Shown piece by piece: positions 42,149 through 47,679 of a DNA stretch of 64,000 nucleotides. Position 1 is the stretch's first letter; the number at the start of each line of letters is the position of its first letter. Location: sequence record MZ726793.1; one strand, 5' to 3'. Both the position numbers and the translations under genes were made by a program. Under the pieces are notes generated by a model. It searched no databases and had not been told where the DNA came from. It saw only the letters and a program-made list of their open reading frames with translations. The stretch comes from Escherichia phage vB_EcoM_ASO2A.

Positions 42149-43522
42149 ATGGCAACTTTTCGTGAAAAGGTAGCAACCGTAACTTTACTGTATGGTGCTA
42201 CATCAATTCGTGAAACCCAGTTCGATATTCCCCTGATCCTTACAGGTCAGAACGTAACTGGCGAAGCGATTCAATACTACTCTTCTTCCGATGCACTTTT
42301 GGAAGCAGGTTATGGATTAAATGATCCAGCGTATATTATGGCAGTCAAACTGTTTAACGGTTTGTTCCCACCAGATCAAGTTATGGTTGGTAAGCGTGAA
42401 GTTACAAACTTTACTCTAACTCCAATCGTAGAAGATAGTGCAACTTACACAATTACCATCAAAAATGGTACCAAGAAAAAAGAATTTAAATTCATTGCTG
42501 ATGATACTGCAACTGCACAAGAGATTGTAGTTGGTCTGACTGAAATGATCAATGCAGATCTTGTTTATGGCCCACTGTTTACAGTAGCTAACAACGGCGC
42601 TGCAATGACTTTCACTCCAGTAGAAGGTAAGTTTGGTTCTATTGACAGCACAGGTTTCACTCAAGAAACTGTCTATGCTAATGCTATTACGGAAGATATT
42701 GCTGCTCTGCATGATATTGATAGTAGCTGGTTCTGGACCCTTTCAGATTCCCATGAAACAGAAGATGTTCTAGCTTTGGCTGCATGGGTAGAAGAGAATG
42801 ATAAAGTTTACTTCTTCTCTAGTTCTGAACCTGGAATTAAAACGAAAGCAGAAGATAACGTTCTGGAACGACTGAATGACCTCGGTTATAATAACACTTG
42901 CTTTGCTTTGTGGATGACCGATGCAGATTCTGTATTCCCAGAAGCAGCAGTTGTTGGTGCAATCTGTTCTCGTCAACCTGGTTTAACTACTCTTCACGGT
43001 AAAACACTGGTAGGTGTAGAGATCGAGAAACTGGATCAGACTTCGGAAAACAATATTGTTCAACAGAACGGTAACATCTATCGTAAAGAGCATGGAACTC
43101 TGTTCTATCGTGACGGATTGATGGTTAGCGGTTTCTTTGTTGACTATGTTGTTCATGCTTTGTGGTTTAAAGCTCGCACAGAAGAATCACTGTTTACACT
43201 GTTTAAACAACAGTCTATGCTGGGTGGTGGTGTTCGTGCTACTTCAAACGGTCTGGCTTTGATTCGACAAGCTGTTCTGGCTAACCCGATCCAAGTAGGT
43301 ATCCTCAACGGTTCCATCGCTAATGAAGTTGTTACTTCTGAAGAGACTGGTTTGCGTGTCGATCTGAAACCTATTGTTTATATTCCTTCTCGTGCCGATA
43401 TGACTGATGCGCAAATCAATGCTCGTCTGGTTGATGGGATGAAGATTGAATATGTTTACGCTGGCTTCTTCCATTACGTTAAAGTTCAGGTCAACGTCCT
43501 GACTAACCGTACTGCAAACTAA
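42149..43522 (+). CDS. tail sheath protein
   Basis: 457 aa directly followed by a 159-aa tube-size protein, chaperone pair and tape measure (contractile-tail gene order). Confidence 0.6.
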   Translation: MATFREKVATVTLLYGATSIRETQFDIPLILTGQNVTGEAIQYYSSSDALLEAGYGLNDPAYIMAVKLFNGLFPPDQVMVGKREVTNFTLTPIVEDSATYTITIKNGTKKKEFKFIADDTATAQEIVVGLTEMINADLVYGPLFTVANNGAAMTFTPVEGKFGSIDSTGFTQETVYANAITEDIAALHDIDSSWFWTLSDSHETEDVLALAAWVEENDKVYFFSSSEPGIKTKAEDNVLERLNDLGYNNTCFALWMTDADSVFPEAAVVGAICSRQPGLTTLHGKTLVGVEIEKLDQTSENNIVQQNGNIYRKEHGTLFYRDGLMVSGFFVDYVVHALWFKARTEESLFTLFKQQSMLGGGVRATSNGLALIRQAVLANPIQVGILNGSIANEVVTSEETGLRVDLKPIVYIPSRADMTDAQINARLVDGMKIEYVYAGFFHYVKVQVNVLTNRTAN

Positions 43523-43568: not shown

Positions 43569-44048
43569 ATGGATAAAATGCTTACTGGCGTAATGGCCTA
43601 CGACCCATCTCAAGTTATCCTTTCATTAGGTGGTTGGGAACCGTGGGGTTTTGCGGCTGATACTAAAATCGTTATTGCTAAATCTAACGATATTATCAAC
43701 CCTTATTCAGGGACTGATGGCGACGTTTCACTAGCTTTGAGTCGTAACCGTTTGGGAACACTCACAATGTCTTTGCAACGCACATCTCCAGCTAACGAAG
43801 TACTTGCAACATATGCACAAACAATGTATTCTACTCGTCAAGTAGCATTCAGTGTTTACTTGGAAGACCCACGTGGCTATTACATTAGCACGATTGGATG
43901 GATTCAAAGTCAGCCTGAAGATACTATTGGCGAAATGATTACAGAGAACCAATGGGTTATTGGTCTTAAAGATGCAAGCCTTCTGCGTAATGAAGTTGGT
44001 GTAGGTTTGAGCACCCTTAACTCAATCTCTGCTCTGACAATTCAATAA
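43569..44048 (+). CDS. tail tube protein
   Basis: 159 aa between sheath and chaperone genes. Confidence 0.55.
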   Translation: MDKMLTGVMAYDPSQVILSLGGWEPWGFAADTKIVIAKSNDIINPYSGTDGDVSLALSRNRLGTLTMSLQRTSPANEVLATYAQTMYSTRQVAFSVYLEDPRGYYISTIGWIQSQPEDTIGEMITENQWVIGLKDASLLRNEVGVGLSTLNSISALTIQ

Positions 44049-44054
44049 TAAATA

Positions 44055-44076
44055 AAGGGCAGAAATGCCCTTTTTA
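44055..44076 (+). terminator. intrinsic terminator after tube gene
   Basis: GGGCA-GAAA-TGCCC followed by TTTTT. Confidence 0.6.
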
Positions 44077-44093
44077 TCATTAGAGAGGAAAAT

Positions 44094-44576
44094 ATGTCAC
44101 AAGAACAAGATAACACAATTCAAAAATATGCTCGACCAGAAGAAGTAGTTGAGATTCCGTTAGATGGAAACAGATCTGTTACTTTCCGTATTATGAAGTG
44201 GAGTCCATCTAAAGTGTTTGACAGGATTCCAGAATTGGGTAGTGTTCTGGTTGTTCCTATGACTATGTATAGCACAGCAACAATGTCCGCAGACGAAGAC
44301 CTTGAGTCACGTATTGCTATGGCACTGATCCAACTTTTTGCAGGTTTGGAAGAAAAGAATTTAACTGTCTTTTTGCGTAAAATTTTAGATGAGGTTTATA
44401 CTCAAGACGGTTATAACGTTGCAGAAAATTTTGATGAATTATTTATGGCTCACCCAGAACTAGTGTTAGATCTTACGGCTAAAGTTCTGGAGGTAAACTA
44501 CGGCCCTTTTTTCAAACGAGGTTTCGGAAAACTGTTCACACAGCTTCAGGCGATGACGAGTTTAGCAGCAAATTAA
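44094..44576 (+). CDS. tail assembly chaperone, short (G-like) form
   Basis: Position between tube and tape measure genes; contains slippery site near its 3' end. Confidence 0.55.
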   Translation: MSQEQDNTIQKYARPEEVVEIPLDGNRSVTFRIMKWSPSKVFDRIPELGSVLVVPMTMYSTATMSADEDLESRIAMALIQLFAGLEEKNLTVFLRKILDEVYTQDGYNVAENFDELFMAHPELVLDLTAKVLEVNYGPFFKRGFGKLFTQLQAMTSLAAN

Positions 44577-44842
44577 CACCTGCGATTGAACATGCTATCG
44601 ACACAGCAACGAAAACCCTTACTTTGAAGTGGTATGAGGTTATTCTTTGCAAAGTCGTTAAAGATACCTCGGAAACACTGAAAACATTGGATAACTACGG
44701 TGTAGATTATCTTTTAAAACTATATGAGTATTTAACATACGAAGAGTATGTTGAAGCCATGTATGTTAAAGACACTTCAATAAAGAGAAAACATCAAAAC
44801 CAGACAAATAAAATGTCAGATTTGTTTAAGAAACTTGTTTAA
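44094..44842 (+). CDS. tail assembly chaperone, long (GT-like) form via programmed -1 frameshift at 44504-44513
   Basis: Slippery CCCTTTTTTC; the -1 frame is open from 44483 to 44842 and has only a TTG start at 44624. Confidence 0.5.
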
Positions 44843-44862
44843 TCCAACACGAGGAACATACT

Positions 44863-46851
44863 TTGTTAGAAATTAACGCCTCCAAAATTAGTAACGTGGT
44901 TACGTTTAAGGTGGACAAGAACAGTCTCAAGGAAGCAAAAGATGCCGTGTTGAGTGTTCAGAAGTTTGCAAATAAAATGCAACCCACTATGAACATGACC
45001 AAGTTTAGACAACAAATGAAAGAGATTGAGCGTGAACTTAAGAAAGCTCAAACTCAAAGTCAAAAACCTATGCGAGCACCTACTCCCGCTGGAGCGGGTG
45101 CTCCTGTAGGCGGATCTGGTAGACCTAGAACTCCTAAAACCCCGCAAGGAAGAGAAGAAGAAAAAGCTCGTAAAGCTGCTGAACGCGAAGCTAAAGCAGC
45201 AGCACGTAGGGAAGATTTAGGTAATCTTCGTTTGCAGAACTTTAACTACAGAGCAAGAGCATTTAGTAAAGCCAGTCCTGGCGCTATGCAAGAAGCTAGA
45301 GACGTTATGGGTAAAGCTGTAGAGCAATACAAAAAGGGTGAAATAACTCTTCAACGTATGAACCAAGCTCTTGCTCACCAGTTAGATGCCTTACGCAGAT
45401 CTCATCGTGAAAAGAATGCTGAAATAGAAGACGAGGTTCGCGGTCGTCGCCGTATTCGTAGAGAGCTAGAAGCAGAAGCTAAAATGCGTATACGTATGCG
45501 AAATCGTGAACTTAGAGATATAGAACGCAACCGTAAGCGTGAATTAGCTCAACAAAAACGTGATCGTGATCGTCGATATGGACAATTAAAAGAAGGTGCA
45601 GCAGGTCTTAATCCACGCATGATTGCATCCTCTTTAATAGGTGCTGGGCTGTTTGCAGGTGGTTCTGTAGTTGGTAACACGTTGATGAATACTAACGAAA
45701 GAATTAAACTTGTAAGTCGTGGTGCTGAAAACGTTCAGACAAACGCCAACGCTATTTTGGCAATGACAGCTTGGGGTGAACAGAACGGTGTAGACTCTGC
45801 AAATATTATTAAGTCAATAGATAATATTAAAGACGTTCGTGAACGTCTTGGTAATACAGTTTTAGCCTCAAAATGGAATGAGAAAGAAGGGAAGTGGAAA
45901 GGCGGTGATAATGGCATAAATGACATTATGAACTTGTTTGGATGGAATCCAGAACAGCTTAAACCTTTACAGAACGATCCTTTAGCTTTTATTCAGGCTA
46001 CTGTTAATGAAGGTGAGCGTCGAGGTATGAACTCTGCTCAAATCGGGCGACTTCTTGAAAACCTTGGTGATGACCTTATGCACTACCAACGTATGTTTAG
46101 TAAAAACGGCGAAGGGTATAATGAAGTATTGAAAATGCTTCAAAGAACAGGTGCAACATTAACTCAAGAACAAATAGATGCTTCTAAAGAGTTTACTCGT
46201 TTTGCTGCAACAGTTCAGCTTGTAGGTCAAGGTATGCAGAACCACTTCTTAGAGGGTTTTGTGAAAGCCTTACCTAAAGATGATTCTTGGTTGGATAATG
46301 TTAAAGTGCTAGATCAGTTTGCCAAAGATTTAGGTGAAGAACTCGGTAAGACAACAGTTCAATTAGGAGGTTTTGCTAAAGAATTGGGAGATGGTTTCGG
46401 ATCTTTTACCAATTGGCTTAAAGAAACATTCCCAGATACATTCGGAGATAACACAGATCCTAATAAATCTATGGCACAAAAAGCATACGAGGCAACGCAA
46501 AGTGGAGATAGCAATCCTGTAGCAGATTGGTTGTACAATTTAACAGGTATTGATACACAAGATATTGGTCGTATGTGGAGAGGAGAACAAACAAGGACAC
46601 GTGCTTTTGGATTTGGTAATCCTCTTGAAGATTTACGTGAATCAGCCTATACACCTAACGTAAGTTTGGCTCGTAATCAACCTGTTGTTGAGAATACGGT
46701 AGCAATACCAAGTGATCTTATCAAAGTTACGATCAGCCCTTCTTCAGAGTTTGGAAATATTCTTGATGCAAGAATTCAAAATAGCGGAAATAGCATTTTC
46801 CAACGTTTGTCTCTTTCAACTCTAAGTGGACAATCTAACACTGGTGGTTAA
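44863..46851 (+). CDS. tail tape measure protein (TTG start)
   Basis: 662 aa, Arg/Lys/Glu-rich coiled-coil N-terminal third, follows chaperone genes. Confidence 0.65.
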   Translation: MLEINASKISNVVTFKVDKNSLKEAKDAVLSVQKFANKMQPTMNMTKFRQQMKEIERELKKAQTQSQKPMRAPTPAGAGAPVGGSGRPRTPKTPQGREEEKARKAAEREAKAAARREDLGNLRLQNFNYRARAFSKASPGAMQEARDVMGKAVEQYKKGEITLQRMNQALAHQLDALRRSHREKNAEIEDEVRGRRRIRRELEAEAKMRIRMRNRELRDIERNRKRELAQQKRDRDRRYGQLKEGAAGLNPRMIASSLIGAGLFAGGSVVGNTLMNTNERIKLVSRGAENVQTNANAILAMTAWGEQNGVDSANIIKSIDNIKDVRERLGNTVLASKWNEKEGKWKGGDNGINDIMNLFGWNPEQLKPLQNDPLAFIQATVNEGERRGMNSAQIGRLLENLGDDLMHYQRMFSKNGEGYNEVLKMLQRTGATLTQEQIDASKEFTRFAATVQLVGQGMQNHFLEGFVKALPKDDSWLDNVKVLDQFAKDLGEELGKTTVQLGGFAKELGDGFGSFTNWLKETFPDTFGDNTDPNKSMAQKAYEATQSGDSNPVADWLYNLTGIDTQDIGRMWRGEQTRTRAFGFGNPLEDLRESAYTPNVSLARNQPVVENTVAIPSDLIKVTISPSSEFGNILDARIQNSGNSIFQRLSLSTLSGQSNTGG

Positions 46852-46858
46852 TAAAATA

Positions 46859-46882
46859 CCTCGCTTCGGCGGGGTTTTTTCG
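46859..46882 (+). terminator. intrinsic terminator after tape measure gene
   Basis: CCTCGC-TTCG-GCGGGG followed by TTTTTT. Confidence 0.65.
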
Positions 46883-46888
46883 TTTCCC

Positions 46889-46918
46889 TTGACACGAAGT
46901 TTCTATATGTGTTACAAT
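46889..46918 (+). promoter_or_regulatory. sigma70-like promoter for baseplate operon
   Basis: TTGACA-N17/18-TACAAT. Confidence 0.5.
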
Positions 46919-46977: not shown

Positions 46978-47679
46978 ATGGCAGCAATGACTCCACAACA
47001 GTCGGTGAGAGCCGTCTATAAGGCAGAACAGGAAATCAACTCTACCGAGAATAAAAATACCTCGGCATCTACTGTAAAGGGTGATAATGGTTTCTGCATT
47101 TTAGCAAGTGTTTATAATAGTTCAAGTGATCAATACATTCAAAACTTTAAAGCAATTACTTTCGATTCGGTCCCTGAAGTAGGTGTAACTCGTGAGGCAG
47201 ATGTTACAAGTTTTCCAGTAGAATCAGGATCGGATGTAAGTGACCACGTTCAAATAAAAAACAACAGATTTAAACTTTCAGGTATAATTACCGAAACACC
47301 AATTCGGCTTATGCGAGATCAATTATACAGTGCAGGTGTAAATGGGGCAAGGATTTCTCAAGCAATAGAATATCTAGATCAAATATTTGAGTCAAGACAA
47401 CCAATAGTTCTTTTGACAGAACACAGGACTTTTGAAAATGTTATTCTCAAAGGCTACTCTTATGATTATAAATCTGAATTTGCTATGCAATTTGATTTAG
47501 AGTTTGAACAAATCCGTCTCGTTTCTAAGGCCACTACTAATGCTATTGCTGTAAAAACAGCACCAAATAAATCGACTGGTGGTGATGTGAAAGGTCAAGT
47601 TGCTTCGAATGGTCCTAAGTCAGATATTACAGTAAGAACTGCTGAAGCTACTAATACCCCAACAAACAACGGAGGTTAA
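46978..47679 (+). CDS. tail/baseplate protein (233 aa)
   Basis: Position. Confidence 0.35.
   Translation: MAAMTPQQSVRAVYKAEQEINSTENKNTSASTVKGDNGFCILASVYNSSSDQYIQNFKAITFDSVPEVGVTREADVTSFPVESGSDVSDHVQIKNNRFKLSGIITETPIRLMRDQLYSAGVNGARISQAIEYLDQIFESRQPIVLLTEHRTFENVILKGYSYDYKSEFAMQFDLEFEQIRLVSKATTNAIAVKTAPNKSTGGDVKGQVASNGPKSDITVRTAEATNTPTNNGG

What the first reader, a model, noticed from the sequence alone, without database searches (positions are those of the whole stretch)
44094..44842. Programmed -1 frameshift in the tail assembly chaperone
The chaperone gene contains the slippery run CCCTTTTTTC (44504-44513). The -1 frame is open from 44483 to the stop at 44842, and its only start is a TTG at 44624. 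A -1 slip would give a long form ending ...YGPFF-QTRFRKTVH...KKLV. This is the conserved short/long chaperone arrangement upstream of tape measure genes, and annotating the 3' part as a separate gene would be wrong.
Basis: partly seen in the sequence, partly recalled or inferred. Interest (0 to 1): 0.4.

Follow-up and report, generated by a model that had tools for sequence, protein, structure and literature searches.

The report
Tail chaperone -1 frameshift, unannotated
This E. coli phage most likely makes a short and a long form of its tail assembly chaperone through a ribosome slip on a run of Ts, a well-known phage device that public records for this phage group have left unannotated.

Summary
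The window is a phAPEC8-like Phapecoctavirus. ORF 44094-44576 is a Pfam Phage_TAC_15 chaperone lying between the tail tube and tape measure genes. Its zero-frame codons GGC CCT TTT TTC form two overlapping canonical slip sites, C_CCT_TTT and T_TTT_TTC. The -1 frame is open from just before them to 44842, 20 nt before the tape measure start.

In 44 unique related loci the two protein halves always sit in frames differing by -1, and T_TTT_TTC is invariant while other synonymous sites are saturated. The -1 frame has 0 stops after the site where about 119 are expected. The 'intergenic' stretch upstream of the annotated TTG evolves as -1-frame coding sequence. That TTG has no ribosome binding site.

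More distant relatives have C_CCT_TTT alone or the lambda-type G_GGA_AAG at or near this place. This site turnover favours ribosomal over transcriptional slippage. I found no conserved downstream RNA structure. An internal Shine-Dalgarno-like GGAGG 10-11 nt upstream is a possible dnaX-like stimulator.

No record examined, and no protein among the database hits, carries the fused form. This is a new member of a well-known kind, useful as an annotation correction and otherwise ordinary. No experimental evidence is available.

The parts
43569..44048 (+). Tail tube gene, upstream neighbour
   Evidence: 159-aa ORF. Matches phrog_280 at E=3e-35 and PF11681 KPP10_Orf10 at E=3e-5, just under the cut-off. 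SKA64 annotates it as tail tube.
44054..44073 (+). Terminator-like hairpin with a T tail, between the tube and chaperone genes
   Evidence: 8-bp stem followed by TTATCATT. phAPEC8 annotates a putative terminator here. It probably lowers transcription into the chaperone and tape measure genes; that is an inference.
44094..44576 (+). Short chaperone ORF (TAC-N), 160 aa, 18.2 kDa
   Evidence: PF21822 Phage_TAC_15 at E=4.2e-23. phrog_3840 tail assembly chaperone at E=2.8e-55. Its start has an SD with anti-SD duplex dG -6.4.
44489..44494 (+). Internal Shine-Dalgarno-like GGAGGT, a candidate 5' stimulator
   Evidence: Anti-SD duplex dG -10.7 kcal/mol, ending 11 nt before T_TTT_TTC. Only 1.6% of random 20-mers of the window bind this well. 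The Glu codon here is GAG in 31 relatives and GAA in 7, against 37% GAG overall. It is absent in some relatives. Its function is inferred.
44504..44513 (+). Slippery run C_CCT_TTT_TTC, two overlapping -1 heptamers; 44507-44513 is the one conserved across the family
   Evidence: Phase confirmed. TTT TTC is present in 44 of 44 unique relatives, and the preceding codon is always NNT although it encodes Cys, Pro or Ser. Both heptamer types are among the efficient ones in E. coli (PMC4066793).
44510..44842 (+). -1 frame extension (TAC-C part, 109 aa after the shift, plus stop); the long form is join(44094..44513,44513..44842), 249 aa, 28.8 kDa
   Evidence: No stop in this frame in 44 unique loci, against 209 and 351 stops in the other two frames. 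Conserved residues include R143, F144, R145, A168, L178, W180, L208 and E212. The codon-position pattern is that of coding sequence.
44624..44842 (+). The 72-aa TTG ORF annotated as a separate hypothetical protein in GenBank; not a gene of its own
   Evidence: Annotated in phAPEC8 and PNJ1809-36. No SD: anti-SD duplex dG +0.1. The TTG is the conserved Leu178 codon inside a conserved protein segment. Annotated starts differ from phage to phage.
44863..46851 (+). Tape measure protein gene, downstream neighbour (TTG start, 662 aa)
   Evidence: phrog_16051 tail length tape measure protein, 1249 bits. SD dG -5.9 with a 7-nt spacer.

Best explanation
The chaperone gene is decoded in two ways. Most ribosomes read 44094-44576 and release the 160-aa short chaperone. 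A minority slip back one nucleotide on C_CCU_UUU_UUC (44504-44513): the P- and A-site tRNAs (Pro/Phe or Phe/Phe) re-pair in the -1 frame. These ribosomes continue to the stop at 44842 and make a 249-aa long form. It shares the N-terminal chaperone domain and adds a linker plus a helical domain of about 80 aa. By analogy with lambda G/GT, both forms would coat the tape measure protein through the shared domain. The extension would then recruit the tail tube protein, and neither form would end up in the virion. The sequence architecture and its conservation are shown here. The slip itself, its efficiency, the stimulators and the protein functions are inferred. The GGAGG 10-11 nt upstream may stimulate the slip as in dnaX. 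No 3' RNA structure seems to be involved.
For: Gene order is sheath, tube, chaperone, tape measure, and the short ORF matches PF21822 at E=4e-23. Both heptamers are in phase. In 53 loci (44 unique) from GenBank phages and IMG/VR, with N-domain identity to the window down to about 22%, the N and C halves always lie in frames differing by -1 with T_TTT_TTC in the overlap. Phe139 is TTT and Phe140 is TTC in 44 of 44, whereas other invariant Phe columns are 23:21 and 28:16. Codon 138 changes amino acid but keeps its third-position T. From the heptamer to the zero-frame stop there are 0 -1-frame stops where 119 are expected. The stretch between the chaperone stop and the TTG differs at codon positions 1/2/3 by 0.30/0.24/0.58, the same as the annotated ORF at 0.34/0.24/0.58. 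Residue A168 in that stretch is invariant. The TTG lacks an SD. More distant relatives found by tblastn carry T_TTT_TTC (Aeromonas PhAER-3), C_CCT_TTT only (Pseudaeromonas KLEP7) or G_GGA_AAG about 4 codons downstream (Rheinheimera Barba35A). Each has a homologous -1 extension. H_HH.U_UU.Y heptamers are efficient in E. coli (PMC4066793). The same arrangement with a GTTTTT motif has been proposed for related families (PMC12846349).
Against: There is no protein or reporter data for this phage or any relative I could find; the rV5 proteomics paper does not mention it. No conserved or unusually stable downstream structure was found: z=-0.27 for the window, and RNAalifold predicts no pairs. The SD-like element is missing in several lineages. 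The IMG/VR loci were partly found through a pattern containing NY..FF, which biases them towards the motif at amino-acid level. This does not affect codon choice, and the tblastn-derived loci are free of the bias. The sequences are phylogenetically related, so the counts are not independent trials.
Confidence: 0.88

Rival explanations
1. Transcriptional slippage. RNA polymerase adds one extra U on the T6 run, so a subset of mRNAs encodes the long form by standard translation. The protein would be identical (...PFFQTR...).
For: The site is a homopolymeric T6 run. The product cannot be told apart from the ribosomal one by peptide sequence; this follows directly from the sequence.
Against: The run is exactly 6 T in all 44 unique relatives and never longer. 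Documented bacterial transcriptional slippage uses runs of about 9 A or T (PMC5009743). KLEP7 has only T5 within C_CCT_TTT, and Barba35A uses G_GGA_AAG, which is not a homopolymer, yet both keep the same two-frame architecture. The phase of the run relative to the zero frame is strictly conserved. Ribosomal slippage requires that phase and polymerase slippage does not.
Confidence: 0.06
2. Independent gene. 44624-44842 is translated from its own TTG as a 72-aa protein, as GenBank records annotate it.
For: An ORF with a TTG start exists and matches phrog_16039 along its full length. Several records annotate it.
Against: No Shine-Dalgarno: dG +0.1, weaker than the median random 20-mer, against -5.8 to -6.6 for neighbouring genes. 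The TTG is not conserved as a start, and annotated starts vary widely between relatives; rV5 even uses a CTG just 5' of the heptamer. Protein-level conservation and the codon-position pattern continue upstream of the TTG to the slip site. The PHROG family simply collects the same gene calls.
Confidence: 0.03
3. Initiation or re-initiation at a non-canonical codon inside the -1 ORF (for example ATT 44585 or ATC 44597) after termination at the chaperone stop. This would give a free C-domain instead of a fusion.
For: ATT and ATC codons lie 9-21 nt after the chaperone stop. The linker between the slip site and the C-domain is poorly conserved.
Against: It does not explain the invariant in-phase heptamer, the absence of -1 stops from the heptamer onward, or the conserved RFR just after the site. 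The distance between the zero-frame stop and the C-domain varies among relatives.
Confidence: 0.03

Closest known systems
Phage lambda G / GT tail assembly chaperones (Levin et al. 1993; Xu, Hendrix & Duda 2004, 2013, 2014; summarised in PMC5009743)
   Same: Position between the major tail gene and the tape measure gene. [quoted passage not shown] The long form equals the short form plus an extension that ends just before the tape measure gene. No strong RNA stimulator. Barbavirus relatives even use lambda's G_GGA_AAG heptamer.
   Different: A myovirus tail and a different chaperone family (PF21822). The slip site is C_CCU_UUU_UUC. Efficiency and protein interactions are untested here.
Proposed -1 frameshift in chaperones of Vandenendeviridae (Pakpunavirus Adele) and Andersonviridae (PMC12846349, Viruses 2025)
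   Same: Related virion module: the tube protein here hits the KPP10 family. The downstream ORF is routinely annotated as a hypothetical protein. A T-run slip motif (GTTTTT) sits near the 3' end of TAC-N, and the -1 frame is uninterrupted across divergent genera.
   Different: That paper covers Vandenendeviridae and Andersonviridae. It names Stephanstirmvirinae and Vequintavirinae only as related clades, not in the frameshift analysis. tblastn from this family does not reach those phages. In this phage the T-run is preceded by CCC, which adds a second heptamer.
Myovirus P2 E / E+E' and Mu gp41/42 chaperone frameshifts (Christie et al. 2002; Xu et al. 2004; recalled from memory, not checked here)
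   Same: Contractile-tail phages with a -1 shift on a T-rich heptamer between the tube and tape measure genes.
   Different: No detectable sequence relationship was tested. Those cases have experimental support.
E. coli dnaX -1 frameshift (5' Shine-Dalgarno stimulator; established knowledge, Larsen et al. 1994, discussed in PMC5009743)
   Same: An internal SD-like sequence about 10 nt 5' of the heptamer.
   Different: dnaX also has a strong 3' stem-loop and about 50% efficiency. Here there is no 3' structure, and the SD-like element is not universal in the family.

Membership tests
Tail assembly chaperone with programmed frameshift (lambda G/GT type) | The gene pair lies between the major tail/tube gene and the tape measure gene | tested here: met
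   Tube 43569-44048, chaperone 44094-44576, extension to 44842, tape measure 44863-46851.
Tail assembly chaperone with programmed frameshift (lambda G/GT type) | The short ORF belongs to a recognised chaperone family | tested here: met
   PF21822 Phage_TAC_15 at 82.7 bits against a cut-off of 22. phrog_3840 at E=2.8e-55.
Tail assembly chaperone with programmed frameshift (lambda G/GT type) | A second ORF overlaps the 3' end in another frame, has no credible start or RBS of its own, and ends near the tape measure start | tested here: met
   The -1 ORF spans 44483-44842 with a 94-nt overlap. Its first start is TTG 44624, which has no SD. The gap to the tape measure gene is 20 nt.
Tail assembly chaperone with programmed frameshift (lambda G/GT type) | A canonical slippery sequence in the correct phase within the overlap | tested here: met
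   C_CCT_TTT and T_TTT_TTC are in phase, and both are efficient types in E. coli.
Tail assembly chaperone with programmed frameshift (lambda G/GT type) | The slip site and the two-frame architecture are conserved in diverged relatives | tested here: met
   Found in 44 of 44 unique loci. Four outgroup lineages carry the same or another canonical heptamer.
Tail assembly chaperone with programmed frameshift (lambda G/GT type) | The fusion protein is actually produced, at a low fixed ratio to the short form | not testable with these tools
   This needs mass spectrometry, western blots or reporter assays. No published data were found.
Tail assembly chaperone with programmed frameshift (lambda G/GT type) | Both forms bind the tape measure protein, the extension binds the tube protein, and both are absent from virions | not testable with these tools
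   Inferred from lambda only. The single-sequence AlphaFold model of the extension was unusable, with pLDDT 49.5.
dnaX-type stimulated -1 frameshift | A 3' stem-loop stimulator 5-9 nt after the heptamer | tested here: not met
   MFE z=-0.27 for the window. RNAalifold predicts 0 pairs. 42-nt folds in 36 relatives give z around 0. No Rfam hit.
dnaX-type stimulated -1 frameshift | A 5' Shine-Dalgarno-like stimulator about 10 nt upstream | tested here: inconclusive
   GGAGG is present in the window at 10-11 nt (dG -10.7) and in 19 of 36 unique contexts at that spacing. It is absent in KP13-16, ChuuTotoro and Certrevirus, and it is confounded with the conserved Glu-Val codons.

The most novel reading that the evidence does not exclude
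The shift in this family may depend on unconventional stimulators in place of a 3' RNA structure. One candidate is the internal Shine-Dalgarno-like GGAGG upstream. The other is the almost invariant GGUUUCGG 6-9 nt downstream. That element encodes RFR in the -1 frame and GFG in the zero frame, and it contains a second shift-prone U_UUC tetramer. It could act at RNA level, through the nascent peptide, or as a back-up slip site that yields a second long isoform (...FFKRGF-RKTV...).
Probability: 0.12. Interest if true: 0.45.

Novelty: new member of a known kind. Interest (0 to 1): 0.27.

Why it matters
This is mainly an annotation correction. Hundreds of public genomes of phAPEC8-, phi92- and rV5-like phages are widely used as E. 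coli, Klebsiella and Salmonella therapy candidates. They list a spurious 'hypothetical protein' or an empty gap where the C-terminal part of the long chaperone is encoded, and none of the records examined has a joined CDS. Correct annotation matters for tail-assembly studies, for engineering these phages and for training frameshift predictors. The turnover between four canonical heptamers at or near one homologous position is a clean natural example of selection for slipperiness itself. It does not change what is known about the mechanism.

Tried and rejected
1. Downstream stimulatory structure. I folded the window's 114 nt after the site (z=-0.27), ran RNAalifold on 11 Stephanstirmvirinae-like sequences (no pairs) and folded 42 nt in 36 unique contexts (z around 0). 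A small hairpin I saw by eye around GGTTTCGN did not emerge as a consistent prediction. I dropped it.
2. Rfam scan of 43900-45100 at E<=1 gave only two sub-threshold chance hits at the terminator hairpin.
3. AlphaFold of the 110-aa extension without an alignment gave pLDDT 49.5. I ran no fold search and did not spend a further database search to build an alignment, because the fold would not change the verdict.
4. A search of 5.8 billion protein clusters with the 249-aa fusion returned only short forms of 158-175 aa. No fused entry was among the hits.
5. Literature searches for a frameshift statement in Phapecoctavirus, Stephanstirmvirinae, Vequintavirinae or rV5 found none specific to these groups. 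Vladimirov et al. 2022 is not held in the library.
6. tblastn from the window, rV5 and Barba proteins did not reach Felix O1-like or Pakpunavirus phages. The link to those families therefore rests on Pfam and the literature only.

Full report
**What the window is.** The 3.5 kb around the finding is 100% identical to Escherichia phage PNJ1809-36 and 99.3% identical to phAPEC8 (Phapecoctavirus, Stephanstirmvirinae). Gene order on the + strand is as follows:
- Tail sheath at 42149-43522, matching DUF3383.
- Tail tube at 43569-44048, matching phrog_280 with a weak KPP10_Orf10 hit.
- A 160-aa ORF at 44094-44576.
- A 72-aa TTG ORF at 44624-44842.
- The tape measure gene at 44863-46851, matching phrog_16051.

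The 160-aa ORF is a tail assembly chaperone. It matches Pfam PF21822 Phage_TAC_15 at E=4.2e-23, and the profile ends at residue 143, right at the T-run. It also matches phrog_3840 at E=2.8e-55.

**Checking the observation.**
- The zero-frame codons are TAC GGC CCT TTT TTC AAA.
- CCCTTTTTTC (44504-44513) therefore holds two overlapping heptamers of the canonical X_XXY_YYZ form in the right phase: C_CCT_TTT and T_TTT_TTC.
- The -1 frame has a stop at 44480-44482 and is then open to TAA at 44840-44842.
- A slip at either heptamer gives the same 249-aa, 28.8-kDa protein...VNYGPFFQTRFRK...FKKLV. The short form is 18.2 kDa.
- One correction: TTG 44624 is the first canonical start in that frame, not the only one. 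Four more lie downstream of it and none upstream.

**How public records treat it.** phAPEC8 and PNJ1809-36 annotate 44624-44842 as a separate hypothetical protein. SKA64 and ESCO5 leave the stretch empty. In more distant relatives the 'downstream gene' is called with starts at widely different positions, giving products of 38 to 122 aa. In rV5 it starts from a CTG three bases before the T-run. None of the 21 records I opened carries a joined CDS. A search of 5.8 billion protein clusters with the fused sequence returned 41 hits. All were short forms of 158-175 aa covering 57-64% of the query.

**Comparative evidence.** tblastn with the fused protein matches relatives in two pieces in two frames, down to about 30% identity. 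These include Justusliebigvirus, Klebsiella KP13-16, rV5, Hena1 and Ro1. I analysed 12 GenBank loci and 40 IMG/VR loci plus the window, which gives 53 loci and 44 unique fusion sequences. The results were:
- The N- and C-terminal halves lie in frames differing by -1 in every locus, with T_TTT_TTC in the overlap.
- Synonymous sites in these genes are saturated. Invariant Phe31 is TTC in 23 and TTT in 21, and Phe117 is 28:16. Yet Phe139 is TTT and Phe140 is TTC in 44 of 44.
- The codon before them encodes Cys (TGT, 24), Pro (CCT, 18) or Ser (AGT, 2), but always ends in T. The nucleotide is kept while the amino acid changes.
- Upstream of the heptamer the -1 frame carries 522 stops in 5874 codons. 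From the heptamer to the zero-frame stop it carries none in 1336 codons, where about 119 are expected. The nearest upstream -1 stop is usually only 12-18 nt before the heptamer.
- Between the chaperone stop and the end of the extension there are 0 stops in the -1 frame, against 209 and 351 in the other two frames.

**The extension is translated from the slip site, not from the TTG.**
- The fused proteins align along their whole length. Invariant residues just after the site are R143, F144 and R145. A168 is invariant in the supposedly intergenic stretch. L178 (the 'TTG start'), W180, L208 and E212 are also invariant.
- Among 15 sequences more than 50% identical to the window, the stretch between the chaperone stop and the TTG differs at codon positions 1/2/3 by 0.30/0.24/0.58 in the -1 frame. 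The annotated TTG ORF gives 0.34/0.24/0.58.
- The dual-coding overlap is more constrained and follows the zero frame.
- The TTG has no Shine-Dalgarno sequence: the best anti-SD duplex is +0.1 kcal/mol. The chaperone, tube, sheath and tape measure starts give -5.8 to -6.6 kcal/mol at 4-7 nt spacing.

**Ribosomal or transcriptional slippage.** An extra U added by RNA polymerase on the T6 run would give the same protein, so this rival had to be considered. Three observations argue against it.
- The run is exactly six T in every relative. Documented bacterial transcriptional slippage uses runs of about nine (PMC5009743).
- The phase of the run is strictly conserved. Only ribosomal slippage requires that.
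- More distant relatives, found by tblastn independently of the motif, keep the architecture with other canonical heptamers. Aeromonas PhAER-3 has T_TTT_TTC. Pseudaeromonas KLEP7 has C_CCT_TTT alone, with only five T. Rheinheimera Barba35A has no T-run at all but carries lambda's G_GGA_AAG about four codons downstream.
- Each of these has a -1 extension with the family motifs SSL.W/F.D and L.KLNE.LDIQ.

Both heptamers in the window are each used alone somewhere in the wider family. H_HH.U_UU.Y heptamers are among the most efficient in E. coli (PMC4066793).

**Stimulators.** I found no 3' structure.
- The window's 114 nt after the site fold no better than shuffles (z=-0.27).
- RNAalifold predicts no conserved pairs.
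- Folds of 42 nt in 36 unique contexts have z around 0.
- Rfam finds nothing.

Upstream, GGAGG (44489-44493) can pair with the 16S 3' end at -10.7 kcal/mol, and the duplex ends 11 nt before T_TTT_TTC. Only 1.6% of random 20-mers in the window bind this well. This is the spacing at which the dnaX Shine-Dalgarno element stimulates -1 shifting, which is established knowledge. A comparable element sits at 10-11 nt in 19 of 36 unique contexts. The Glu codon that makes it is GAG in 31 and GAA in 7, against 37% GAG overall. It is absent in several lineages and is confounded with conserved Glu-Val codons, so its role is only a hypothesis.

Downstream, GGTTTCGG is nearly invariant. It encodes RFR in the -1 frame and GFG in the zero frame, and it contains a U_UUC tetramer. 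Dual coding is the simplest explanation for its conservation.

**Comparison with what is known.** This is the conserved short/long chaperone arrangement of long-tailed phages (lambda G/GT; Xu et al. 2004; PMC5009743). A December 2025 paper proposes the same -1 frameshift, with a GTTTTT motif, for the chaperones of Vandenendeviridae and Andersonviridae. It notes that the downstream ORF is routinely mis-annotated (PMC12846349). It names Stephanstirmvirinae and Vequintavirinae only as related clades. I found no paper or record stating the frameshift for these two subfamilies. The case is therefore a new member of a known kind.

**Limits.** Everything here is sequence-based. The slip, its efficiency, the roles of the two forms and any stimulator are inferred. 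The IMG/VR loci were found partly through an amino-acid pattern that includes NY..FF. This does not bias codon choice, and the GenBank loci came from tblastn alone. The sequences are related, so the counts are not independent events.

**Verdict.** My confidence that a -1 ribosomal frameshift yields a 249-aa long chaperone is about 0.88. Interest is low to moderate at 0.27. The finding is an ordinary mechanism, worth an annotation correction, with an instructive slip-site turnover in the wider family.

Noticed in passing
window 44054-44073 (+ and -): A GC-rich hairpin (AAAGGGCAGAAATGCCCTTT) followed by T's lies between the tube and chaperone genes. phAPEC8 annotates it as a putative terminator. 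It could set a high ratio of tube protein to chaperone and tape measure protein at the transcript level.
   Followed up: partly
window 46858-46918: A terminator-like hairpin sits right after the tape measure gene (46858-46875, then TTTTTCGTTT). It is followed by a near-consensus sigma-70-like promoter: TTGACA, 18 nt, TACAAT, 11 of 12 matches with an upstream TG, at 46889-46918. This lies ahead of the next tail gene at 46978.
   Followed up: no
window 44520-44527; same place in L004-L055: GGTTTCGG lies 6-9 nt after the heptamer and is almost invariant across two subfamilies. It reads RFR in the -1 frame and GFG in the zero frame, and it contains a shift-prone U_UUC tetramer in the zero frame. 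This is either a dual-coding constraint or an additional signal; I did not resolve which.
   Followed up: partly
L007 (rV5) 1551-1919; L008 (Hena1) 1551: rV5 gp050 is annotated from a CTG three bases before the heptamer. In Hena1-like phages the codons GGA TGT create an ATG in the -1 frame directly before the T-run, with a GGAGA about 10 nt upstream. Free initiation of the extension is therefore conceivable in that lineage only.
   Followed up: no
L059 (Rheinheimera phage Barba35A) 1624-1630 and 1926-2564: The slip site has been replaced by G_GGA_AAG. A minus-strand gene annotated as a putative DNA-binding protein sits between the chaperone extension and the tape measure gene, breaking the usual tight linkage.
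   Followed up: partly
GenBank hits: Records labelled Campylobacter phage (MG0656xx series) and Acinetobacter phage vB_AbaM_ABPW7 carry this region at high identity to E. coli phages: ABPW7 99.3% DNA identity to the window, A135 99.6% protein identity to rV5, other MG0656xx records matching phi92-like phages. The host labels look doubtful.
   Followed up: no
L009 (Raoultella phage Ro1) 635-1107: The tail tube gene is split into two CDS (635-829 and 868-1107) in this record, whereas relatives have one gene of about 158 aa. This is probably a sequencing or assembly frameshift.
   Followed up: no
alignment A1 columns about 150-190: In Vequintavirinae the extension carries a variable Gly/Ser/Asp-rich linker of 20-35 residues between the RFR motif and the C-domain. 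The linker is much shorter in Stephanstirmvirinae, including the window.
   Followed up: no
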